Source: Gekko japonicus
Lineage: Eukaryota
Assembly (NCBI RefSeq): GCF_001447785.1
Contig: NW_015164754.1
Span: forward strand, 42,749-106,748
Direction: 5' to 3'
Length of the DNA stretch: 64,000 bases
Shown here in pieces: positions 1 through 61,125 of this stretch (positions are counted from its first letter, which is position 1; every line of letters starts with the position of its first letter). A program made the translations under genes and the position numbers. A model generated the notes under the pieces. The model saw only the letters and a list, made by a program, of their open reading frames with translations, was not told where the DNA came from and made no database searches.

Positions 1-68
1 CTATAAAGGCAACTCACTTTCTCTACTAAAACATGGGCTTATGGTGGAGCATTTGCTTGGCACGTAAA

Positions 69-481
69 CAGGGCTGGCTCAAGGTGATTCTGCGCCCTAG
101 GCGAGGCTGCCTTGTGGTGAAGATGCCAACCTCCTGGTGGGGCCTGGAGACCTCTGGAGCCAGCCACCCTTTTGCTACCGCCGCCACTGCCTCCCCCCCC
201 CNNNNNNNNNNNNNNNNNNNNNNNNNNNNNNNNNNNNNNNNNNNNNNNNNNNNNNNNNNNNNNNNNNNNNNNNNNNNNNNNNNNNNNNNNNNNNNNNNNN
301 NNNNNNNNNNNNNNNNNNNNNNNNNNNNNNNNNNNNNNNNNNNNNNNNNNNNNNNNNGACACTTGGAGAGCTGCTTGCGGGCGTTTGGCGGCGGGGGGGG
401 GGGAGGCACAGCTCGGTGCCCCATCCAGGGCCCAGCACTCTAGGCGAATGTCTAGTTTACCTAGTGGGTGAGCTGGCCCTG
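69..481. mobile_element. hAT-like MITE inserted into a tRNA-derived SINE head
   Basis: Termini cagggctggctca and tgagctggccctg; degenerate 8-bp TSD cacgtaaa/catgtaca. The flanks rejoin as a tRNA-like sequence (ggtggagcatttgcttggca...ggttcgatccctg). Confidence 0.6.
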
Positions 482-1745
482 CATGTACAAGGTTGCAGGT
501 TCGATCCCTGCCAGCATCTGCCCTTAAAAGGCTCAAGTATGTAAAAGAGATAGGAACTCTCAGTCTGGGGCAAGTGATGCACTGTATTCTTGGTGCTTGG
601 GGGGGGGGCAACAGTAGGAGGGCTTCTAGAACCAGTTTGGTGTAGTGGTTAAGTGCATGGACTCTAATCTGGGAGAACCAGGTTTGATTCCCCACTTCTC
701 CACTGGCACCTGGCTGGATGACCTTGGGCCAGCCATGGTTCTGACAAGAGCTGTCTTTGAAAGGGCAGTTCTGGAAAGGGCTCTCTCAGCCCCATCTACC
801 TCACAGGGTGTCGGTTGTGGGGAGGGGAAGGGAAAGGAGTTTGGAAGCCGCTNNNNNNNNNNNNNNNNNNNNNNNNNNNNNNNNNNNNNNNNNNNNNNNN
901 NNNNNNNNNNNNNNNNNNNNNNNNNNNNNNNNNNNNNNNNNNNNNNNNNNNNNNNNNNNNNNNNNNNNNNNNNNNNNNNNNNNNNNNNNNNNNNNNNNNN
1001 NNNNNNNNNNNNNNNNNNNNNNNNNNNGACCTCCTGATGGCACCAGGTATATTTGGCCACTGTGTGACAGAGGGTTGGACCGGATGGGCCATTGGCCTGA
1101 TCCAACATTGGTTTCTCTTATGTTCTTATCTTCTCTGCCGGAGACCCCGAAAAGCCTCTGCCAGTCTAAGTAGGCAATACCTGGATGGAGTCAGTCAAAT
1201 GCAGCTTCGTGTGTGTCCAAGAGCAATGGTTTCCAAAGCTGACTGTGCATAAGCTATTTAGAAAATAAATACCTATAAGCTAGTGATTGCTAAAGACGTT
1301 TTCACACAGGCTAAATAGTACAGGTTCAATCCACTTCAGCGGCCATTTGAAAGTGAATCTTGCCATTTCACACAGAGTAAAATCCAGATGCAAAGTGGAT
1401 TGAAAGTGGATTGAAAGTGGGCGACTTAGTGTGTGCGAACACTTCTGTTCCAATGGCCGGCTTGCTTGGAAGCTCTAAGAGCAATCACTATTTCTCAGGT
1501 GCTGCGGAGTGTGCAACCGAGAGGCCATTATATGAACCTACCTTACGCTGAGCTAGACAACTGGTCTACTGAAGCCCGCATTGTTTCCTCAGACCTGGGG
1601 TCAGGAAGGAGGGATCACTGAGGGAATGTCAAACAAAACAAAACAAAAAAAGGCCTTCACCTGCTGGACGAAGATGGCGACAGATGCAGACAGGTGACTC
1701 TCCCTGGGGAGATCCTAGAGATTTTGTGCCATGTCCTCTCCCAGG

Positions 1746-1951: not shown

Positions 1952-2034
1952 CTCCCAGGTTCCTAATTTTTTCCTCCTTCACTGGTGTTATTGCCTGGCT
2001 TTAGGTTGATCCCCGTTCTCCTCTCCCTTCACAG

Positions 2035-2329
2035 CTTCTCCGAGATGGGTCTTCGCCCAAGTTTTCCAGCCCGTGCAGCTGGTATTTGCGGAAGGCCAGA
2101 AGATCCACATCTCCTGCCACCAGAACGCCACGCCCCATAACACAATGTTTTGGTATCGACAACCACAGGAGAGTCGGCGGGCTTTAACCAGTCTAGGGAG
2201 TACGTACTCGGGCTCGATTTCTGCTGGAGAATTCCGCATGGACGTGAACACGGCATCGCGTTCTACCAACCTGACCAAAGAGAGAGCGGCAATGAGAGAC
2301 TCTGGCGTGTACTACTGCGCCGTGAGGGA
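2035..2329 (+). CDS. TRAV: T-cell receptor alpha variable gene segment, V exon (TRAV1/TRAV2-like); leader exon not found in window
   Basis: Pyrimidine tract plus cag acceptor at 2032-2034, then a phase-1 open frame: xSPRWVFAQVFQPVQLVFAEGQKIHISCHQNATPHNTMFWYRQ...AMRDSGVYYCAVR(D). First Cys, conserved Trp (WYRQ) and DxGxYYC motif are present, followed directly by an RSS. Confidence 0.93.
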
Positions 2330-2368
2330 CACAGTGAGAGGAAGACGGCAGCCAACAGTATGAAAACC
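2330..2368 (+). other. 23-bp-spacer recombination signal sequence (V-RSS)
   Basis: Heptamer CACAGTG at 2330-2336, 23-nt spacer, nonamer ATGAAAACC at 2360-2368 (7/9 match to ACAAAAACC). Confidence 0.92.
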
Positions 2369-11150: not shown

Positions 11151-12086
11151 ATGGAAGGCTTGAATCACACCCGGGTGACCCATTTTGTGTTCTTGGGTCT
11201 GACGAGTAACCACAGGCTCGAGCTGGCCTTATTTGCCGTCTTCTGTGTCATGTACCTGCTCATCTTAGCGGGCAACCTCCTCATCATGGTGACGGTGGCT
11301 TCCGACCGCTGCCTCCACACCCCCATGTACTTCTTCCTGGGCAACCTCTCTTTCATCGACATCTGCCACTCCTCGGTCACTGCCCCCAAGATGCTCCTGG
11401 ACTTCCTGTCGTTCCAGAAGACCATCTCCTTCAACGGATGCATGGCACAGCTTTTCTTCCTCCACCTCTGCGCCTGCGCGGAGATCTTTCTCCTCACGAT
11501 CATGGCCTATGACCGCTACATCGCCATCTGCCACCCGCTACAATACATGTCCCTCATGAGCCTGAAGGTGTGTACCTGGCTGGTGGGCGCCCTTTGGGTG
11601 GGAGCGATGGTCCACTCTCTGGTGCAGACGGTCCTCACCATCCAACTCCCTTACTGTGGACCCAATGTATTAGACAGCTTTTTCTGTGATGTACTCCCAG
11701 TCATCAAGTTGGCCTGCACAGACACGTACTTGACAAGGGTTCTTATTGTGTCCAACAGTGGCATGATATCCCTGGTCTGTTTCTTGGCCTTACTGGTTTC
11801 CTATATAGTCATCCTGGTGTCACTAAGAGGGCAGACAGCTGAGGGGCGACGCAAGGCCCTCTCCACCTGTGCGGCCCACCTGCTTGTCGTGGCCTTGTTC
11901 CTGGGGCCTTGTATCTTTATCTACACCCGCCCTGCTGGCAGCTTCTCGGCGGATAAAGTGGTTGCCGTTTTCTACACGGTGGTGACTCCCGTGCTCAACC
12001 CGGTGATTTACACCCTGAGGAATGCCCAAATGAAGAACTCCATGAAGAAGCTGAGAGACCAGAAGATCTTTTTCATTGGGACATGA
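11151..12086 (+). CDS. OR4E2: Class II olfactory receptor, OR4E2-like (mouse MOR83/MOR244-3 type)
   Basis: Intact single-exon 311 aa with LHTPMYFFL, MAYDRYIAIC, KALSTC and PVLNPVIY. N-terminus LNHTRVT.FVFLGLT, GPCIFIYTRP and C-terminal ..FF match recalled OR4E2. Confidence 0.9.
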   Translation: MEGLNHTRVTHFVFLGLTSNHRLELALFAVFCVMYLLILAGNLLIMVTVASDRCLHTPMYFFLGNLSFIDICHSSVTAPKMLLDFLSFQKTISFNGCMAQLFFLHLCACAEIFLLTIMAYDRYIAICHPLQYMSLMSLKVCTWLVGALWVGAMVHSLVQTVLTIQLPYCGPNVLDSFFCDVLPVIKLACTDTYLTRVLIVSNSGMISLVCFLALLVSYIVILVSLRGQTAEGRRKALSTCAAHLLVVALFLGPCIFIYTRPAGSFSADKVVAVFYTVVTPVLNPVIYTLRNAQMKNSMKKLRDQKIFFIGT

Positions 12087-16716: not shown

Positions 16717-17673
16717 CTAGAGGGAACATTGCCTACTATCTTTCCCTCCTGAAGTGACCTGTCGCCCTCGCAGTTTGTTCAGAGCATTCAGCATGTCCTC
16801 GTTGCGGAGGGTATAGATGATCGGGTTGAGCAGGGGAGTGACGGCCGTGAAGAAAACAGAAACTATCTTGTCTGCTGCCAGGCTCTTGGCTGGCCTGAGG
16901 TAGATGAAGATGCAGTGGCCCAGGAAGAAGGTCACGACGGTCAGGTGGGCAGCGCAAGTTGACAGAGCCTTCCGCCGTCCCTCAGAGAAGCGGTTCCGCA
17001 AGGAGACGAGGATGACCACGTAGGAGACCACCAGGACCACAAAGCAGACGACCGAGATCAGACCCGAGTTGGAGACGATGAGGATTTCGAAGACATAAGT
17101 GTCGGCGCAGGCCAGTTTGATGACCAAGGGCACATCGCAGAAGAAATTGTCGATGGCGTTGGGCCCGCAGTAAGGCAGGTTGAGCGTCAGAGCAGTCAGG
17201 GCGAGGGAATGGATCAACCCGCCCAACCACATGGCCACGGCCAACTGGAGGCAGACCTGGCGGCTCATGATGGTGGTGTAATGGAGGGGGTTGCATATGG
17301 CGGCGTAGCGGTCGTAAGCCATGATGGTGAGGAGGAAGATCTCCGTGCAGGCAAAGAGGTGGAGGAAGAACATCTGGGCTATGCATTCTCCAAAAGAGAT
17401 GGTCTTGGTCTCCGTCAGGAAGTCAGCGAGCATCTTGGGCATGACCACCGAGGAATGGCAGACGTCAATGAAGGAGAGGTTGCTGAGGAAGAAGTACATC
17501 GGGGTGTGGAGGTGATGGTCGTGGACGATCGTGACGACAATGAGGACGTTGCCGATGAGGATGGAGGTGTAGATGACGACGAAGAAAGCGAAGAGCGCCA
17601 GCTCGACGTTGTGGCTCGTGGTCAGGCCCGAGAGGATGAATGCTTTCACGGTGGTGACATTTCCAAGGATCAT
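16717..17673 (-). CDS. Class II olfactory receptor, OR4E1-like paralog
   Basis: 318 aa from MILGNVT (acceptor ...ttctttccag just upstream). All OR motifs intact; HLFACTEIF, SNSGLISVVCF and FLGHCIFIY are typical of OR4E1/MOR28. Confidence 0.88.
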   Translation of the reverse strand: MILGNVTTVKAFILSGLTTSHNVELALFAFFVVIYTSILIGNVLIVVTIVHDHHLHTPMYFFLSNLSFIDVCHSSVVMPKMLADFLTETKTISFGECIAQMFFLHLFACTEIFLLTIMAYDRYAAICNPLHYTTIMSRQVCLQLAVAMWLGGLIHSLALTALTLNLPYCGPNAIDNFFCDVPLVIKLACADTYVFEILIVSNSGLISVVCFVVLVVSYVVILVSLRNRFSEGRRKALSTCAAHLTVVTFFLGHCIFIYLRPAKSLAADKIVSVFFTAVTPLLNPIIYTLRNEDMLNALNKLRGRQVTSGGKDSRQCSL

Positions 17674-26322: not shown

Positions 26323-27288
26323 TCACTTCTTCTCCGAGTCCACCTTCCGACCAACCATTTTGTTGAGCGCTCGCTTCATATCCTCGTTCCGCAGTGTGTA
26401 GATAATGGGGTTGAGCAACGGGGTCACAGCCGTGAAGAAGACCGACACCACCTTGTCTTCCTTGAAGCTGGTGGAGGGGCGGGAGTAAATGAAAATGCAG
26501 TGCCCCAGGAAGAGAGTCACCACGGTGAGGTGTGCCGCGCAGGTAGAAAGAGCCTTGCGCCGGCCTTCGGCAAAACGGTTGCGGAGGGAGACCAAGATGA
26601 CACCGTATGAGACCACCAGCACCACAAAGCAGACCACGGAGATCAGCCCGGAGTTGGAAATGATAAGGACCTCGATGATGTAAGTGTCGGTGCACGCCAG
26701 CTTGATGACCGGAGGAACGTCGCAGAAGAAGTTGTCCACCTCCTGGGGGCCACAGTAGGGTAGCTTGATGGTCATGCCGATTAAGGCGAGGGAATGGACC
26801 GTACCACCTAGCCAGATCATTCCGGCCAACAGTAGGCAGACCTTGTGGCTCATGACGGTGAGGTAATGCATAGGATTGCAAATGGCCACGTAGCGGTCGT
26901 AGGCCATGACGGTGAGTAGGAAGATTTCGGTGCAGGCAAAGAGGTGAAGGAAGAACATCTGGGCCATGCAGCCTCCAAAGGAGATGTTCTTCTCGGCGGA
27001 GAGAAAGTCGGCCAGCATCTTGGGCACGGTCACTGTGGAGTGACAGATGTCAATGAAAGAGAGATTGCTCAGGAAGAAGTACATGGGCGTGTGGAGGGCT
27101 TGGTCGGGCACGATGGTGACCACGATGAGGAAGTTCCCGGCCAAAGTCAGTGCGTAGAGCACCAGAAAGACCACAAAGAGAACCAGCTGCATCTCGGGGT
27201 CGTTAGAGAGGCCCACCAGGATGAATTCGGTCACCAAGGACTGGTTTTGTGCTTCGGCAGTCCAGTTTGGAGTCACCTTTTCTTCCAT
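26323..27288 (-). CDS. OR4E1: Class II olfactory receptor, OR4E1-like (mouse MOR28/MOR10 type)
   Basis: Intact 321 aa. The C-terminal half (FLGHCIFIYSRPSTS..EDKVVSVFFTAVTPLLNPIIYTLRNEDMK.ALNK.VGRK) is nearly identical to recalled OR4E1. Acceptor tcttcttgtag ends 7 nt upstream of the ATG. Confidence 0.9.
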   Translation of the reverse strand: MEEKVTPNWTAEAQNQSLVTEFILVGLSNDPEMQLVLFVVFLVLYALTLAGNFLIVVTIVPDQALHTPMYFFLSNLSFIDICHSTVTVPKMLADFLSAEKNISFGGCMAQMFFLHLFACTEIFLLTVMAYDRYVAICNPMHYLTVMSHKVCLLLAGMIWLGGTVHSLALIGMTIKLPYCGPQEVDNFFCDVPPVIKLACTDTYIIEVLIISNSGLISVVCFVVLVVSYGVILVSLRNRFAEGRRKALSTCAAHLTVVTLFLGHCIFIYSRPSTSFKEDKVVSVFFTAVTPLLNPIIYTLRNEDMKRALNKMVGRKVDSEKK

Positions 27289-34444: not shown

Positions 34445-36929
34445 TTTTTTTTTGGTAAACAAATTTTATTATTTTCTATACGAGTTTTACATTTAACCAT
34501 TTCCAATTTTCCATTGTTCACCCATACCCATTTCCTCCCCTCCCTCCTGTGGCTTCCCGCAATGCTTCCCCCTTACCCTCCACATTACTATATATCATCA
34601 ATTATATCATTTTTCTTATCATTACAGATTTAAGATAACATCATTTAACCTAATATTGATCTAAACACATTAAATTTTGTTTCACATCCCAGTTCTTCTC
34701 CAGATAAATTTTAAAGTAATTCCATTCTTCAAAAAATACCTCATCTTCTTTGCCGTTCAGCTTTTTTGTAATTTTGTCCATTTCAGCCATGAACCGAACT
34801 TTTTGTATCCAATCTTCAATCTCTGGTACTTTCTCTGTTTTCCAAAATTGTGCAAACAACATTCTCGCAGTTGTTATTAAGTACCAAAGTAAAGTCTTTT
34901 TAGTCGTGTTCACTTCATCTATTTTCAAACCCAAAAGCAGAATTTCGGGTGCTTTTTTAAAAGAGCATTTCAATATTTTTTGCATTTCATTGTGGACTTT
35001 TGTCCAAAAGTCTACAGCTTTTTCACAAGTCCACCACATATGATAAAATGAGCCCTCATGACTCTTGCATTTCCAACATTTGTTTGACATATTCTGGTTC
35101 ATATTTGCAATTTTCTTCGGAGTCATGTACCACCTGTACATCATTTTAAAGCAGTTCTCTCTGACATTGGTACAAGCCGATATCTTAATAGAGTTTTTCC
35201 ACAAATATTCCCAAGTTTCAATAGTCACCTCCCTATTCATATTTATTGCCCACTTTATCATTTGCTCTTTAACAATTTCATCTTCAGTATACCATTTCAA
35301 CAACAGTTTATACATTTTAGAGATATTTTTTCCCTCTCCACTTCCCCAAATATTTTCCATTTCATTTTTTTCTTCTCTAAAACCATAATTTTTNNNNNNN
35401 NNNNNNNNNNNNNNNNNNNNNNNNNNNNNNNNNNNNNNNNNNNNNNNNNNNNNNNNNNNNNNNNNNNNNNNNNNNNNNNNNNNNNNNNNNNNNNNNNNNN
35501 NNNNNNNNNNNNNNNNNNNNNNNNNNNNNNNNNNNNNNNNNNNNNNNNNNNNNNNNNNNNNNNNNNNNNNNNNNNNNNNNNNNNNNNNNNNNNNNNNNNN
35601 NNNNNNNNNNNNNNNNNNNNNNNNNNNNNNNNNNNNNNNNNNNNNNNNNNNNNNNNNNNNNNNNNNNNNNNNNNNNNNNNNNNNNNNNNNNNNNNNNNNN
35701 NNNNNNNNNNNNNNNNNNNNNNNNNNNNNNNNNNNNNNNNNNNNNNNNNNNNNNNNNNNNNNNNNNNNNNNNNNNNNNNNNNNNNNNNNNNNNNNNNNNN
35801 NNNNNNNNNNNNNNNNNNNNNNNNNNNNNNNNNNNNNNNNNNNNNNNNNNNNNNNNNNNNNNNNNNNNNNNNNNNNNNNNNNNNNNNNNNNNNNNNNNNN
35901 NNNNNNNNNNNNNNNNNNNNNNNNNNNNNNNNNNNNNNNNNNNNNNNNNNNNNNNNNNNNNNNNNNNNNNNNNNNNNNNNNNNNNNNNNNNNNNNNNNNN
36001 NNNNNNNNNNNNNNNNNNNNNNNNNNNNNNNNNNNNNNNNNNNNNNNNNNNNNNNNNNNNNNNNNNNNNNNNNNNNNNNNNNNNNNNNNNNNNNNNNNNN
36101 NNNNNNNNNNNNNNNNNNNNNNNNNNNNNNNNNNNNNNNNNNNNNNNNNNNNNNNNNNNNNNNNNNNNNNNNNNNNNNNNNNNNNNNNNNNNNNNNNNNN
36201 NNNNNNNNNNNNNNNNNNNNNNNNNNNNNNNNNNNNNNNNNNNNNNNNNNNNNNNNNNNNNNNNNNNNNNNNNNNNNNNNNNNNNNNNNNNNNNNNNNNN
36301 NNNNNNNNNNNNNNNNNNNNNNNNNNNNNNNNNNNNNNNNNNNNNNNNNNNNNNNNNNNNNNNNNNNNNNNNNAGATTGTCAAATGCCTTTTCGGCATCG
36401 ACAAATAAAAAAGCTACTTCTTGTTCTGGGTGTTTCTCGTAATATTCAATTGCATCCATTACTATTCTTACATTGTCTCGAATCTGTCTCTTTGGTAAAA
36501 AACCAGCTTGGTCTTCTGAGATCACTGTTTGTAAATAGTTTTTCACCCTATCTGCAATAACTTTTGCAAAAATCTTGTAGTCATTGTTCAAAAGAGAAAT
36601 TGGCCTATAATTCTTCACATTCGTTAGTTCTTGTCCTTCCTTTGGTATTAATGAAATAATTGCTTCCTTCCAAGAGTCCGGCACCTTCTTACTCTCACGT
36701 ATGTCGTTGGATAAAGCTTCCATGGCCGGAGCAATTTCTTCTTTCATTTTTTTATAAAACTTTGCAGTAAATCCATCCGGTCCTGGCGCCTTCCCCAACT
36801 TCGCATCTTCTATAGCCTTAATCACTTCTTCCTTTTGGATCCGACCATTTAATAAGTCTTTGTATTCGCTGCTTACTTTAGATAGTGGAGTTTCCTCTAG
36901 ATATTTTTTGATCTTCTCAAGATCAGCTC
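34445..36929 (-). mobile_element. Young 5'-truncated L1-clade LINE spanning an N gap
   Basis: RT motifs KAPGPDGF, NYRPISLLN.DYKI, DQAGF and DAEKAFD; C-terminal CWKC..H..W.C; poly(A) tail; 15-bp TSD gaacatttccctctt at 34430 and 36930. Confidence 0.93.
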
Positions 36930-38555: not shown

Positions 38556-38610
38556 ATGGGCGCTTCTGTCTCTCTGACAGGGATGTTCTTCATTCTTCTC
38601 TTCATCCTTG
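38556..38610 (+). CDS. TRAV: Leader (L-PART1) exon of the second TRAV gene
   Basis: The 55-nt exon encodes the hydrophobic MGASVSLTGMFFILLFIL and ends in a consensus phase-1 donor G|gtgagt, in frame with the V exon at 40450. Confidence 0.85.
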
Positions 38611-40449: not shown

Positions 40450-40735
40450 CTCCAAGGGTTATCTTTGGCCAAGTGTTCCAACCCAAGCAACTCACCTATA
40501 CGGAGGGGGCCAAAGTCCTGATCCCATGCCATCAAAATGTCACCAGCCACAGCAATATGCATTGGTACGAGCAACACACCGGTGGTGTCCCATCTTGGCT
40601 GGGACAGGCCTATGAAGGCTTCTCTCCTGCTGGAGACTACCAGATGGAGGTGATCAAAACATCTCGCTCTACGAACCTCATCGTCGACGTGGCAAGACTG
40701 AGAGACGCCGGCGTCTACTTCTGTGCCGTGAGAGA
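40450..40735 (+). CDS. TRAV: T-cell receptor alpha variable gene segment, V exon (TRAV1/TRAV2-like), apparently functional
   Basis: Acceptor ctctctattccctactag|, then APRVIFGQVFQPKQLTYTEGAKVLIPCHQNVTSHSNMHWYEQHTGG...LRDAGVYFCAVR(D); Cys, Trp and Cys hallmarks intact. Confidence 0.94.
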
Positions 40736-40774
40736 CACAGCGAGAGGAAGCCAGCTGGCTTCAGCACAAAAAGC
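40736..40774 (+). other. 23-bp-spacer recombination signal sequence (V-RSS)
   Basis: CACAGCG at 40736-40742, 23-nt spacer, ACAAAAAGC at 40766-40774 (8/9 match). Confidence 0.93.
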
Positions 40775-46930: not shown

Positions 46931-47842
46931 ATGCCAAACCACACGGTGATCCTGGAATTCGTTCTCCTCGGGATCCCCCACACCGAAGGCCTCCAAAACA
47001 TCCTCTTTGCCGTCTTCTTGTCCTTCTACCTCTTCACTCTGCTCGGCAACCTGCTCATCCTCACGGCAATCGTCTGTGATGCCCGCCTCCACACGCCCAT
47101 GTACTGGTTCCTCTGCAATCTCTCTGTGGTAGACCTTGGCTTCTCCTCTGTCAGCACTCCCAAGCTCTTGGCCAACCTCTGGGCAGGGAGCAGAACTATC
47201 TCTTTGGGCGGGTGCATGTGCCAGGTCTTCTTCTACCACCTCTTGGGCAGCACCGAGTGCCTTCTGTACACCGTCATGGCCTACGATCGCTACGCCGCCA
47301 TCTGCCACCCGCTGAGGTACACGGTCATCATGAACCGGAAAGTGTGTGCCCTCTTGGCCGCTGGTACTTGGTTCACCAGTTCGTTCCATGCCACCATCTT
47401 AACCAGCTTGACCTTCACGCTCCCTTACTGTGGGTCCAACGTGGTGGACTATTTCTTGTGTGACATTTTCCCGGTAGTCAAGCTGGCTTGCGCTGACACC
47501 TACATCATTGAGACAGTGAGCTTCACCAACATCGGTGTGGTGCCCATGGTCTGCTTTGGACTCATCCTCATGTCCTACATCAGAATCGCCGTCTCCGTGC
47601 TCAGGATGCGCTCTGCGGAAAGCCGGCGCAAAGCAGCCTCCACTTGCGTGTCACATTTGACAGTTGTTTGCTTCTTCTTCGGGCCTTGCGCCCTCCTCTA
47701 CACCCAGCCATCTCTGAGTGACATATTAGCCACCCCGATCCAGATCTTCTGCAATGTTGTCACGCCCATGTTGAACCCAACTGTCTATACTCTGAGGAAC
47801 AAGGAGGTTCAGGCGGCATTCAGAAAGCTAAAAGGGGGTTAG
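46931..47842 (+). CDS. Class II olfactory receptor, family 10 (OR10D-like)
   Basis: Intact 303 aa: LLGIPHTEGL, LHTPMY, MAYDRYAAICHPLRY, LTSLTFTLPYCG, VSFTNIG, PMLNP. Confidence 0.88.
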   Translation: MPNHTVILEFVLLGIPHTEGLQNILFAVFLSFYLFTLLGNLLILTAIVCDARLHTPMYWFLCNLSVVDLGFSSVSTPKLLANLWAGSRTISLGGCMCQVFFYHLLGSTECLLYTVMAYDRYAAICHPLRYTVIMNRKVCALLAAGTWFTSSFHATILTSLTFTLPYCGSNVVDYFLCDIFPVVKLACADTYIIETVSFTNIGVVPMVCFGLILMSYIRIAVSVLRMRSAESRRKAASTCVSHLTVVCFFFGPCALLYTQPSLSDILATPIQIFCNVVTPMLNPTVYTLRNKEVQAAFRKLKGG

Positions 47843-56239: not shown

Positions 56240-59200
56240 TGGAAGCTGGCATCCCTATCGTTATATAGCATTAGACAGGGCTATTTTTGGGCAGGACGCA
56301 CAGGAACGGAGTTCCGGCAGGCTTCCAAGTTGGCCACGCCCAGCAGGAACTCATTAGCATAACAAGACACACCCAGCTGTGCTGTAATAGGTGTGGCCTA
56401 ATATGCTAATAGGTTTCTGCTGTCGGGTGTGGCCTATTATGCTAATGAGTTCCTGCTGGGCTTTTTCCACAAAAAAAGCCCTGGCATTAGAAAAAGGGGA
56501 GTTGTAACTAATCTCCATGCAAATATGATCCATCCTTTGGACCTATCCGCACCACAACAGAAAGGGACATGTAATCCACACTTCTGAAGGAGGTAGAATA
56601 TGGAGCAGGGCCTCAAGTGAAGACCATCTGATACCATTCTGAAATTGGTTATTAGCTCTAAATATATTATTAAATACTAAATGTTAGTTCTAAACATGTT
56701 CCGGCTTGGGAATTAAAATAACAGGGAGTATTTATTGCTCAGTTACTTATACATCTTCTTGGCAACTAACCTCCCCTACCTGTTTCAGTCTCTATCTGAG
56801 GAAGAGTGTTTGCACACGAAAACTCATATCTTGAATAAAACTTTGTTGGGCTTAAAGGGGCCTCTGGACTCAAACTTTGTTCTTGGTGTCCCAATGTTTT
56901 ACTTCAAAGTGGCCGCCAGGGGCTCCAAATCTAACAAGAGTGCCACTGTAGGAGAGGGTATAATCATTCCTGCCAAGCTGTTTACGTGATCTAAGACTCC
57001 CATCTCCCTTGAAGCTCCAACACCTAGGGAAAAACAAATATGGCTGCCAGAGGTGAAAACAAGACTGTCGGGACAATTCTCCCATGCCATGTAAGATGTA
57101 GTTTGGCCCAGAGTCTCAGCAGAGCAGTTATGTGCACTGACCATGGGGGAAACAAAAATAATACGTGAGGGGAAAAAAGGAGAAGAATGGGAATATAGGG
57201 AGGGTGCAGCATCTTAAAGACAGGATAAGTAAACAGGACAGAAATAAATACCAGCAGAAATGTTGGTCTTCAGACCAAAAGATCTTTTAGTCTTTGTTCT
57301 CCTGCTTCTACTGCCATTAATGGTTCAGGGAAAGAAATCCCGCTTTAGCTGCCTTGATGGTTCCTCACTAAGAGTTGCTGGCACGTCAATAGTGTTTTAG
57401 CTAAAACATGGATGGATGAAGAGATGTACTGCAGAATGGCGAAGAGGTGGCTGAGTTCCCATCAGCGTCTGGATTCCAAGCTTCTGATGTAGAATCTGCT
57501 GGAAAGCAGGTACTACCTTTTAGGTGACCGGAGTACGTACTGGACAACAATCCTCCCTCAAAGCTGTGGAGTCTTTTTTTTTTTTTTGGTAAACAAATTT
57601 TTATTATTTTCCATAAGTTTTACAGTTAACCATTTCCAATTTTCCATTATTCACCTATATCCATTTCCTCCCCTCCCTCCTGTGGCTTCCCGCAATGCTT
57701 CCCCCTTACCCTCCACATTATTATATATCATCGATTATATCATTTTTCTTATCGTTACAGTTTTAAGATAACATCATTTAGCCTAATATTGATCTAAACA
57801 TATTAAATTTTGTTTCACATCCCAGTTCTTTTCCAGATAAATTTTAAAGTCATTCCATTCTTCAAAAAATACGTTGTCTTCTTTGCCGTTCAACTTTTTT
57901 GTGATTTTGTCCATTTCAGCCATGAACAGAACTTTTTGTATCCAATCTTCAATCTCTGGTACTTTCTCTGTTTTCCAAAATTGTGCATACAACATTCTCG
58001 CTGTTGTTATTAAGTACCAAAGTAAAGTCTTTTTAGTCGTGTTCACTTCTTCTATTTTAAGACCCAAAAGCAGAATTTCGGGTGCTTTTTTAAAAGAGCA
58101 TTTCAATATTTTTTGCATTTCATTGTGGACTTTTGTCCAAAAGTCTGCAGCTTTTTCACAAGTCCACCACATATGGTAAAATGAGCCCTCATGACTCTTA
58201 CATTTCCAACATTTGTTTGACATATTCTGATTCATATTTGCAATTTTCTTCGGAGTCATGTACCACCTATACATCATTTTAAAACAGTTCTCTCTGACAT
58301 TGGTACAAGTCGATATCTTAATAGAGTTTTTCCACAAATATTCCCAAGTTTCAATAGTCACTTCCCTATTCATATTTATTGCCCNNNNNNNNNNNNNNNN
58401 NNNNNNNNNNNNNNNNNNNNNNNNNNNNNNNNNNNNNNNNNNNNNNNNNNNNNNNNNNNNNNNNNNNNNNNNNNNNNNNNNNNNNNNNNNNNNNNNNNNN
58501 NNNNNNNNNNNNNNNNNNNNNNNNNNNNNNNNNNNNNNNNNNNNNNNNNNNNNNNNNNNNNNNNNNNNNNNNNNNNNNNNNNNNNNNNNNNNNNNNNNNN
58601 NNNNNNNNNNNNNNNNNNNNNNNNNNNNNNNNNNNNNNNNNNNNNNNNNNNNNNNNNNNNNNNNNNNNNNNNNNNNNNNNNNNNNNNNNNNNNNNNNNNN
58701 NNNNNNNNNNNNNNNNNNNNNNNNNNNNNNNNNNNNNNNNNNNNNNNNNNNNNNNNNNNNNNNNNNNNNNNNNNNNNNNNNNNNNNNNNNNNNNNNNNNN
58801 NNNNNNNNNNNNNNNNNNNNNNNNNNNNNNNNNNNNNNNNNNNNNNNNNNNNNNNNNNNNNNNNNNNNNNNNNNNNNNNNNNNNNNNNNNNNNNNNNNNN
58901 NNNNNNNNNNNNNNNNNNNNNNNNNNNNNNNNNNNNNNNNNNNNNNNNNNNNNNNNNNNNNNNNNNNNNNNNNNNNNNNNNNNNNNNNNNNNNNNNNNNN
59001 NNNNNNNNNNNNNNNNNNNNNNNNNNNNNNNNNNNNNNNNNNNNNNNNNNNNNNNNNNNNNNNNNNNNNNNNNNNNNNNNNNNNNNNNNNNNNNNNNNNN
59101 NNNNNNNNNNNNNNNNNNNNNNNNNNNNNNNNNNNNNNNNNNNNNNNNNNNNNNNNNNNNNNNNNNNNNNNNNNNNNNNNNNNNNNNNNNNNNNNNNNNN

Positions 59201-61125
59201 NNNNNNNNNNNNNNNNNNNNNNNNNNNNNNNNNNNNNNNNNNNNNNNNNNNNNNNNNNNNNNNNNNNNNNNNNNNNNNNNNNNNNNNNNNNNNNNNNNNN
59301 NNNNNNNNNNNNNNNNNNNNNNNNNNNNNNNNNNNNNNNNNNNNNNNNNNNNNNNNNNNNNNNNNNNNNNNNNNNNNNACCTGCAAGGCCGGCGGGAGTG
59401 CAAGGAAGCCCCGCGAAGGCCCTCCCTGGCCCCAGGCAGGCAGGGGTGGGGAGAGGCAGGGAGGAAGCAACTTACTCTCCCTCTTCTCCTGCCTCCTCCT
59501 GGCTGAATGAGGGCTGGAAGCGGGGCGGCCGGAATGACCTCTGGCTAAGACAAAAATGTGTGAGCCAGAGGCTAAAAAACTGTGAGCTAGTGCACACTAA
59601 CTCAGCTTAGAGGAAACACTAGACACAGGACAGTCTCCTGCAACAAGTGGCACGACTGGTACAGAGAGGCATTTTCAGAGCAGATCGTTTCACCTGTGCC
59701 AGTCTGCAGTAGAAGAGCCTAGATTTGAGTTCTATAGCACCTTAGAGACCAACAAAATCTGGAGGGTATCAATTTTTGAGCGATCAAAGCTCCCTGGTGA
59801 AGGGTACCTGGTCTCTGAAGAATGGATATTTGACTTTCAAAAGCTTATACCCTGAAAATCTTGATGGTCTCTAAAGTGCGAAGGTACTCAAATCTAGATT
59901 TTCAGAGCAGTTCCTTCTGCTTGCTTGATAGATTCGGCACACTCGGCGAAAGTTTGCTTTGACTAGAGAGGTGACCACTTGGCAGCAGGGGCAGATCTAC
60001 TATGAAACGAATGAAGCTTAAGCTAAAGGTCCAAAAATCCTGGAACGGCCCTGAAGCAACTTCTTTGCTTAATGAGTGAATTTTTCAACAAAACTTAGGG
60101 AGAGGAAACCACAGTGAGATGGATCCAGAGCATCCTCCCATCCCTTCCTGCCTGGAAATTAAGATCACAGGGAGAGGCCATTCTGACTGTCCCTTCCATC
60201 AAGGAAGTTCATTTGGTGGGTACATGAGAGAGGACTTCTTAAGTGGCAGCGACACGATTATGGAACAAGCTCAGGGAGGTGCACCTTGCCAGGGTGGTGT
60301 ACTGGATAAGAGCACCAGACTCTGATCTGGAGAACCGAGTTTGTTTCCACATTTCTCCATGTGTAGCCAGGTGGGTGACCTTGGGTCAGTCACCATTCTC
60401 TCAGAACTCTCTCAGCCCCACCTACCTCTCAGGGTGTCTGTTGTGGGGAGAGGAAGGGAAGGTGATTATAAGCCACTCTGAGACTCCCTTGGGTAGTGAA
60501 GAGCGGGATATAAAAATGAATTCTTCTTCTTTTCTTCTTCATCTTCTTCTTCTTCTTCCCCCCTTACTTTTGATCTTTAGCAGGCAGTTGAAGATGGTTT
60601 TATTTAGGACTACATTTGATTAATTTGTTTTTAATGTATTCTATTTTGTGAATCTTATCTATATTGTTAACCATGTTTAGCTCCCGAAAGAAGAAAGGTA
60701 CCTAATAAAGGCCTAAAATGAATGAATTAATTAAGGAGTCTGCTTCCAGCCTATGGGGCCTTTTCCAGGTGGCTGTTCTACCAATGGAACAGCAACTTAA
60801 GTAAGTGGAAGGTACCTTGGGATAGAAGAAGAAAAAGAAGTAGAGGAGGAGGAGGAGGAGAAGAAGAAGAAGAAAAAGAAGAGGAGGAGGAGGAAGAGTT
60901 GGATTTATACCCAACCCTTCACTCAAAATCTCAGAGTGCCTTACACTCTCCTTCCCTTCCTCTCCCCATAACAGAAACCCTGTGAGGTAGGTGGGGCTGA
61001 GAGAGCTCTGAGAGAACTGCTCTTGAGAGAACAGGTCTGGGAGGACTGTGATTGACCCAAGGTGACTCAGCTGGTTTCATGTGGAGGAGTGGAGAATCAA
61101 ACCTGGTTCTCCAGATTAGAGTCCA
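56240..61125 (+). pseudogene. Tandem duplicate of the OR10G-like unit (49825-56100) with the coding exon deleted
   Basis: Collinear match to 49825-52955, then a jump at ~60092 to sequence matching 55191 onward (the last ~8 codons and 3' flank). Confidence 0.85.
57574..58384 (-). mobile_element. L1-clade LINE 3' end, same young family as 34445 (runs into an N gap)
   Basis: Nearly identical ORF2 C-terminus and 3' UTR; poly(A) tail; inserted in a MITE. Confidence 0.92.

What the first reader, a model, noticed from the sequence alone, without database searches (positions are those of the whole stretch)
2035..2368. V segment in the positional slot of TRAV1, the MAIT-cell V gene, with a germline CAVRD end
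Seen: an intact V exon just upstream of the OR4E2-like gene on the same strand, with QP.....EG..I.I.C, FWY.Q and MRDS..Y.CAVRD, and a perfect heptamer. Established: mammalian TRAV1(-2) sits here, ends QMKDSASYLCAVR, and forms the MR1-restricted MAIT TCR (CDR3 CAVxD...); TRAV1 and MR1 are described as co-evolving in mammals. Squamates lack gamma-delta T cells, so an innate-like alpha chain would be notable. Caveats: CAVRD is not unique to TRAV1, and CDR1/CDR2 here (NATPHNT/TYSGS) differ from TRAV1. MAIT-like function is therefore only a hypothesis.
Basis: partly seen in the sequence, partly recalled or inferred. Interest (0 to 1): 0.7.

Follow-up and report, generated by a model that had tools for sequence, protein, structure and literature searches.

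The report
Ancient TRAV gene, not TRAV1
This is an intact, transcribed T-cell receptor alpha V gene segment of a gecko that sits where mammals keep the MAIT-cell gene TRAV1, but it belongs to a different, frog-to-reptile V lineage, and with no MR1 gene found it is likely an ordinary V gene rather than a MAIT receptor.

Summary
The V exon is real: open V-set domain (window 2035-2329), 23-spacer RSS, and one record splicing a leader onto it. It lies between SALL2 and OR4E2-like, the mammalian TRAV1 slot. The sequence says otherwise. It is 48-52% identical to sea turtle, alligator and horned-lizard V genes and 41-44% to frog ones, a clade supported at 99/93 with an N-x-T sequon in CDR1 in 9 of 9 aligned members. 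It is only 27% identical to a painted-turtle V that matches human TRAV1-2 (93 bits), and that turtle carries a separate member of this clade next door. The turtle TRAV1 finds no orthologue in the visible genome. No MR1 was found: 0 of 25 class I alpha1 exons have Lys at the MR1-43 position, and the IER5-STX6 interval has no class I exon. The germline end is CAVR+GA, shared with two other V genes here. No V-J join was seen, at very low depth. Caveats: an AU test does not reject a sister relation to TRAV1 (p=0.31), and 46% of the SALL2-V interval reads N. Verdict: ordinary TRAV of an old lineage; MAIT reading not supported.

The parts
2015..2034 (+). Polypyrimidine tract and AG splice acceptor of the V exon
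   Evidence: a leader-V record joins at 2034/2035
2035..2329 (+). V1: TRAV exon (end of signal peptide + V domain, ends CAVR+GA; N-x-T sequon in CDR1)
2330..2368 (+). 23-spacer RSS (CACAGTG / ATGAAAACC)
1..1687 (+). Repeat-rich upstream DNA (probable intron); a 98% identical copy lies about 5.6 kb upstream on the contig, preceded by the only visible leader exon
11151..12086 (+). OR4E2-like olfactory receptor
16717..17673 (-). OR4E1-like olfactory receptor
26323..27288 (-). Second OR4E1-like receptor (label by likeness to the first; exact sequence not in the collection)
38556..38610 (+). Predicted leader exon of V2 (G|GTGAGT donor, splices in frame)
   Evidence: not checked against reads
40450..40735 (+). 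V2: second TRAV of the same clade, in the slot after OR4E1-like
40736..40774 (+). 23-spacer RSS of V2 (CACAGCG / ACAAAAAGC)
46931..47842 (+). OR10D/10G-like receptor, first of an OR10-like cluster that runs to the contig end
54291..55217 (+). Further OR10-like receptor (label from my reading; its cluster mate is unnamed)

Best explanation
V1 is an intact, transcribed TCR-alpha V gene segment of an old frog-to-reptile V lineage distinct from TRAV1, lying among olfactory receptors next to SALL2, and it likely works as a conventional, rarely used V gene that RAG joins to varied TRAJ segments. Shown: open V domain, 23-RSS, leader splicing (one record), unrearranged read-through records, clade membership, a separate TRAV1-like gene in turtle. 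Inferred: physical linkage to the TRAJ/TRAC cluster (another contig), rearrangement, diverse J use, low usage owing to its distal place and a two-mismatch nonamer, and loss of TRAV1 in this lineage.
For: A profile search of 1.84 billion representatives gives as best single V domains sea turtle 130, horned lizard 128, alligator 111, Xenopus 83 and other frogs 75-78 bits, then 67 and below for other TRAVs. ML tree of 90 rows: reptile group 100/96, frogs + reptiles 99/93. Painted turtle model P0025 holds a TRAV1-like V (93.6 bits to human TRAV1-2 chains, 71 to the next family) followed by the 3' half of a V1-clade V (87% to the sea turtle member, 55% to V1). V1 against that TRAV1-like V: 27%, rank 81 of 89. 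The turtle TRAV1-like V against G000: best 45.5 bits, at most 40% identity, V1 and V2 not among 47 matches. V1 against V2: dN/dS 0.25, dS 1.6, an old duplication under purifying selection. A 30-nt loose end matches the leader exon at 29 of 30 and splices in frame. 79 TRAJ, TRAC and DAD1 lie on contig C8388.
Against: The AU test does not reject joining the clade with turtle TRAV1 (p=0.311); 95 columns, and the turtle row is a long branch. V2's best single-domain PDB matches are TRAV1-type and MAIT alpha chains (39-44 bits against about 33 for the next single-domain hits), though the nine-sequence profile scores TRAV1-2 (54-55), a chain I take to be chicken TCR alpha (55.7) and TRAV4 (53.7) alike. 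No V-J join was seen in 8 runs laid, so rearrangement is not shown. 10,564 of 22,793 bases between SALL2 and V1 read N and could hide a TRAV1. No mammalian TRAV1 or TRAV2 sequence was in the tree; the turtle gene stood in for TRAV1.
Confidence: 0.68

Rival explanations
1. The V1/V2 lineage has been kept for about 350 million years because it builds a semi-invariant, innate-like TCR that sees a non-classical class I molecule other than MR1.
For: One or two copies seen per species from frogs to reptiles; the CDR1 N-x-T sequon is invariant in 9 of 9 aligned members and occurs at that place in 4 of the 80 other tree rows; the genome has many divergent class I genes (57 exon matches); Xenopus has invariant alpha chains restricted by class Ib (PMC12562908, passages).
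Against: Deep TRAV clans shared by reptiles and mammals are the rule (10.1101/002618, passages). Identity among reptile members is only 48-64%. The Xenopus V-alpha-6 primer, translated by eye, does not match the Xenopus member. No repertoire data.
Confidence: 0.1
2. V1 is a fast-evolving TRAV1 orthologue that forms a MAIT-like receptor.
For: Position between SALL2 and OR4E2-like (mammalian order from PMC4574546 and PMC2275272, passages); CAVR end; V2's PDB ranking; AU p=0.311; one J with a D-x-N-Y start.
Against: 27% identity to turtle TRAV1-like V against 52% to the turtle's other gene; CDR1 and CDR2 unlike TRAV1-2 as aligned; no MR1 by residue or by synteny; 0 of 79 J have the W-G-x-G motif of TRAJ33, and Tyr four places before the motif is common (15 of 79); reviews place MR1 in marsupials and placentals only (PMC11514058, PMC5002277, PMC12562908; passages).
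Confidence: 0.04
3. V1 is a transcribed but practically non-rearranging outlier, stranded more than 100 kb of olfactory receptor genes away from the main V array.
For: All 3 records that cross the coding end are unrearranged; nonamer has two mismatches; 108,903 bases without a V follow V2 to the contig end; its terminal branch (0.33) is slightly longer than those of V2 and the horned-lizard gene (0.27, 0.26).
Against: Frame, leader splice and heptamer are intact; dN/dS 0.25; three records from one study of unknown tissue are too few; the unusual FR3 residues are shared across the clade, so they are not decay; the Xenopus member appears in a V-J-C gene model (P0023).
Confidence: 0.18

Closest known systems
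Reptile and frog TRAV clade (sea turtle P0006, alligator XP_025046929, horned lizard KAH0626237, Xenopus XP_031761762)
   Same: 41-53% identity, Q-V-F-Q-P-type start, CDR1 N-x-T, clade-typical FR3; in alligator it follows a V like gecko V0, in horned lizard it precedes an OR10-like gene
   Different: The gecko has two old copies, V1 and V2; all records are unnamed gene models
Mammalian TRAV1 / TRAV1-2 (MAIT alpha chain)
   Same: Slot between SALL2 and OR4E2; CAVR end; 23-RSS
   Different: 27% identity to the turtle TRAV1-like proxy; different CDR1 and CDR2; turtle has both genes; no MR1 found here
Mammalian TRAV2
   Same: V2 occupies the slot after the OR4E genes where TRAV2 lies (PMC4574546, passages); a Q-V-F-Q-P start in TRAV2 is recalled, from no call
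   Different: No TRAV2 sequence was returned by any tool, so orthology is untested; a large OR10-like cluster follows V2 here
TRAV4/TRAV26-like clan
   Same: The clade nests in a 33-row group with sheep and cat rows that I read as TRAV4/26-type (93/88; labels from my reading)
   Different: Only 26% identity to the sheep row; the support is not starred

Membership tests
Functional TRAV gene segment | Open V-set exon with both cysteines and the conserved tryptophan | tested here: met
Functional TRAV gene segment | 3' RSS with 23-nt spacer | tested here: met
   nonamer has 2 mismatches
Functional TRAV gene segment | Leader exon spliced in frame | tested here: met
   one record in run X2, 29 of 30 bases match the leader
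Functional TRAV gene segment | Linked to TRAJ/TRAC on one chromosome | tested here: inconclusive
   TRAJ/TRAC/DAD1 are on contig C8388, V1 on C5044; SALL2 marks the 5' border in other species (PMC2275272, PMC12698447, passages)
Functional TRAV gene segment | Found rearranged to a J | tested here: inconclusive
   0 joins in 9 records from 8 runs; only 3 records cross the coding end
TRAV1 | 5'-most position among olfactory receptors near SALL2 | tested here: met
   another V (V0) lies between SALL2 and V1
TRAV1 | Closest in sequence to TRAV1 | tested here: not met
   (24% in the profile comparison)
TRAV1 | Conserved CDR1 and CDR2 | tested here: not met
   V1 loops against the TRAV1-2 alignment printed; the turtle gene keeps TRAV1-like loops, V1 does not
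TRAV1 | One clade with TRAV1 in a tree | tested here: inconclusive
   the free tree separates them; AU p=0.311; turtle proxy only
MAIT / MR1 system | MR1 gene with Lys43, between STX6 and IER5 | tested here: not met
   0 of 25 distinct alpha1 exons have Lys there; no class I exon in the 44,901-base interval, of which 3,168 read N; position mapped from chain offsets with recalled numbering
MAIT / MR1 system | TRAJ33-type J with Tyr95 | tested here: inconclusive
   0 of 79 J have W-G-x-G; 15 of 79 have Tyr in that register, one with a D-x-N-Y start; the contig ends within the J cluster
MAIT / MR1 system | Semi-invariant V-J join of fixed CDR3 length | tested here: inconclusive
   no join recovered
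MAIT / MR1 system | Recognition of riboflavin-pathway ligand | not testable with these tools
   needs cells
TRAV2 | Sequence orthology to mammalian TRAV2 | not testable with these tools
   no TRAV2 sequence recognised among the hits

The most novel reading that the evidence does not exclude
V1 and V2 belong to a TRAV lineage kept in one or two copies from frogs to reptiles, with an invariant N-glycan site in CDR1, that replaced TRAV1 in the distal slot in geckos and encodes an ancient innate-like T-cell receptor restricted by a non-MR1 class Ib molecule.
Probability: 0.1. Interest if true: 0.75.

Novelty: new member of a known kind. Interest (0 to 1): 0.3.

Why it matters
It shows that the SALL2 - V - OR4E - V layout at the far end of the TRA locus is older than mammals, while the V gene in the slot can differ: position and a CAVR end do not identify TRAV1. 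It also names one conserved V lineage to check first in reptile repertoires for innate-like use. The by-product may matter more: a painted turtle V closely matches human TRAV1-2, and turtles are reported to have an MR1-like gene, so the TRAV1-MR1 pair may predate mammals and have been lost in geckos.

Tried and rejected
Word-index protein searches found nothing for V1 or the turtle TRAV1-like domain and only 6 frog or unnamed hits for the clade profile, so no mammalian TRAV1/TRAV2 rows and no cross-squamate dN/dS. PF09291 found no TRAC in G000; it was located through DAD1 instead. AlphaFold model of V1: pLDDT 58, not used. ESM Atlas did not hold V1 and gave only generic V-set clusters for the turtle homologue. 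The ATG at window 33 was rejected as a leader: it lies in what I read as a SINE, and the spliced record uses another exon. V0 as TRAV1: rejected, 23% to the turtle gene and PDB hits mostly of TRDV1 and TRAV8 type. No listed holder of V1 is on record as RNA; X8, X9 and X4 gave no record, and X7 covers the intron and looks like DNA. Earlier findings: none. Four key papers were not held: PMC4889381, PMC9012676, PMC7613099, PMC3761575. 10.1101/006924 (passages) and PMC8945572 (passages) added little.

Full report
Observation. The exon runs from 2035 to 2329 behind an AG acceptor, translates without a stop into a V-set domain and is followed by CACAGTG, 23 bases and ATGAAAACC. Two such signals occur in the window against 0.12 expected. 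The coding end is CAVR plus GA; the D needs the heptamer's first base. A CAVR end is shared by 3 of 46 V exons extracted from loci of this genome.

Neighbourhood. The window is G000:C5044:42749-106748. On the 192-kb contig the order is SALL2-like zinc-finger gene (-; name from my reading of the ORF), V0 (+), V1 (+, the finding), OR4E2-like (+), two OR4E1-like (-), V2 (+), then OR10-like genes to the end; three V segments were found, and my scans, which were not built for J or C, showed nothing else of the locus. Receptor names come from 90% cluster mates in other squamates, mostly geckos for the OR4E genes. In human, OR4E2 lies between TRAV1-2 and TRAV2 (PMC4574546, passages); in opossum, METTL3, SALL2 and ORs flank the 5' end with TRAV1 among them (PMC2275272, passage). 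So V1 holds the TRAV1 slot and V2 the TRAV2 slot. TRAJ (79 found), TRAC and DAD1 are on another contig; linkage is inferred.

Leader and transcription. A leader-like exon lies 5.7 kb upstream of the window, just before a 98% copy of window 1-1687; it is the only visible copy. Of 16 runs listed I laid 8. X1-X3 (one study, RNA by the tool's guess) gave 6 records, all within 2034-2390 and none in the intron. One carries 30 extra bases matching that leader at 29 of 30 and splicing in frame. Three read through the RSS, so they are unrearranged. X10 gave 1 read in 1,436 million letters; X8, X9 and X4 gave none; X7 covers the intron. No V-J join was seen; the depth is too low to say more. X2 also shows five base differences at depth 2-4; by hand two are silent and three change residues, one turning CAVR into CALR. 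They may be an allele, a tandem copy or errors.

Ancestry. A V1+V2 profile against 1.84 billion representatives (716 hits at E up to 0.001, 150 listed) ranks sea turtle, horned lizard, alligator, Xenopus and two other frogs first among single domains. In a 90-row ML tree (95 columns; 3 Ig light-chain rows left out, 22 of the listed proteins used) these form a clade at 99/93, the reptile part at 100/96. Nine aligned members share an N-x-T sequon at the start of CDR1 and the unusual FR3; 4 of the other 80 rows have a sequon there. V1 and V2 are 51% identical with dN/dS 0.25 and dS 1.6; V2 pairs with the horned-lizard gene (64%; 94/37), which also precedes an OR10-like gene.

Not TRAV1. Painted turtle model P0025 begins with a V scoring 93.6 bits against human TRAV1-2 chains and 71 against the next family, then continues into half of a V1-clade V. 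One species therefore has both genes. V1 is 27% identical to the TRAV1-like V and 52% to the sea turtle clade member. The TRAV1-like V finds nothing above 45.5 bits in G000, and neither V1 nor V2 among 47 matches. Against this: V2's best single-domain PDB hits are TRAV1-type chains, the AU test cannot reject a union (p=0.311), and 10,564 of 22,793 bases between SALL2 and V1 read N. A distant sister relation and a hidden TRAV1 both stay possible. TRAV2 orthology is a lead from position and a recalled motif only.

No MR1 found. PF00129 gives 57 matches, 28 of them alpha1 exons. Of 25 distinct ones parsed, none has Lys at the MR1-43 position; one more has Cys by eye, one duplicates another, and one 35-residue fragment was not fetched. 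Lys43 as the Schiff-base residue is from the search-listing abstract of PMC11506377. Two exons searched against PDB match chicken class I (83 bits, MR1 65) and a class I chain I take to be the anole's (100 bits, MR1 90) best. MR1 lies between STX6 and IER5 in mammals (PMC5002277, passage). Those families are neighbours on C10126 (gene identity from my reading), and 38 gecko class I exon queries find nothing in the 44.9-kb interval. Reviews confine MR1 to marsupials and placentals, with a possible turtle MR1-like gene (PMC12562908, PMC11514058, passages). MAIT chains need TRAJ33/12/20 and Tyr95 (PMC11190491, passages); none of 79 J has W-G-x-G, and 15 have Tyr in that register.

Mechanism. Most likely RAG joins V1's 23-RSS to TRAJ 12-RSS to give conventional alpha chains at low frequency (inferred, 0.68). 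Rivals: a transcribed but non-rearranging outlier (0.18), an innate-like receptor for a non-MR1 class Ib molecule (0.10), a MAIT-like TRAV1 (0.04).

Novelty. [quoted passage not shown] Ten literature searches listed nothing on this clade or on a turtle TRAV1, but the main papers on TRAV1-MR1 coevolution and on the skink and tuatara TRA locus were not held, and bioRxiv supplements are closed; either may already cover it. New member of a known kind; interest 0.3.

Noticed in passing
P0025 residues 32-128 (painted turtle XP_023968887.1): A V domain scoring 93.6 bits against human TRAV1-2 MAIT chains with TRAV1-like CDR1 and CDR2: a likely TRAV1 orthologue outside mammals, in a lineage reported to have an MR1-like gene.
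   Followed up: partly
window 40450-40774: Second V of the same clade (V2) with a predicted leader at 38556-38610 and a better nonamer; it sits in the TRAV2 slot. Expression not checked.
   Followed up: partly
L034 4089-4424 (G000:C5044 about 34.1-34.4 kb): V0, a divergent V (ends CALA+GA, 23-RSS) between SALL2 and V1; 38% identical to the V that precedes the clade member in an alligator model.
   Followed up: partly
window 1-1687 and L034 7139-8227: 98% identical tandem copy about 5.6 kb apart: a recent duplication of the V1 unit or two haplotypes assembled in tandem; run X2 shows a second V1 variant ending CALR.
   Followed up: partly
window 2035-2329: V1 has the highest CpG observed/expected ratio (about 0.9) of 46 V exons compared; its flanks are at 0.1-0.3.
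   Followed up: no
G000:C8388 about 342,250 (L132): A TRAJ starting D-x-N-Y with Tyr in the MAIT Tyr95 register; 14 other J have Tyr there too.
   Followed up: partly
L116-L122 (contigs C16833, C16851, C16380, C6900): A group of divergent class I alpha1 exons with Cys at the MR1-43-equivalent position: a candidate non-classical class I family.
   Followed up: no
L014, L029 (contig C2977): Two V segments ending CAKQD with 22-nt spacers, possibly the squamate TCR-epsilon V genes (my guess).
   Followed up: no
L036 (G000:C5044 109257-110636): An OR10-like gene interrupted by one stop codon.
   Followed up: no
window 34653-36413 and 57786-59471, minus strand: Two near-identical LINE ORF2 3' fragments.
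   Followed up: no
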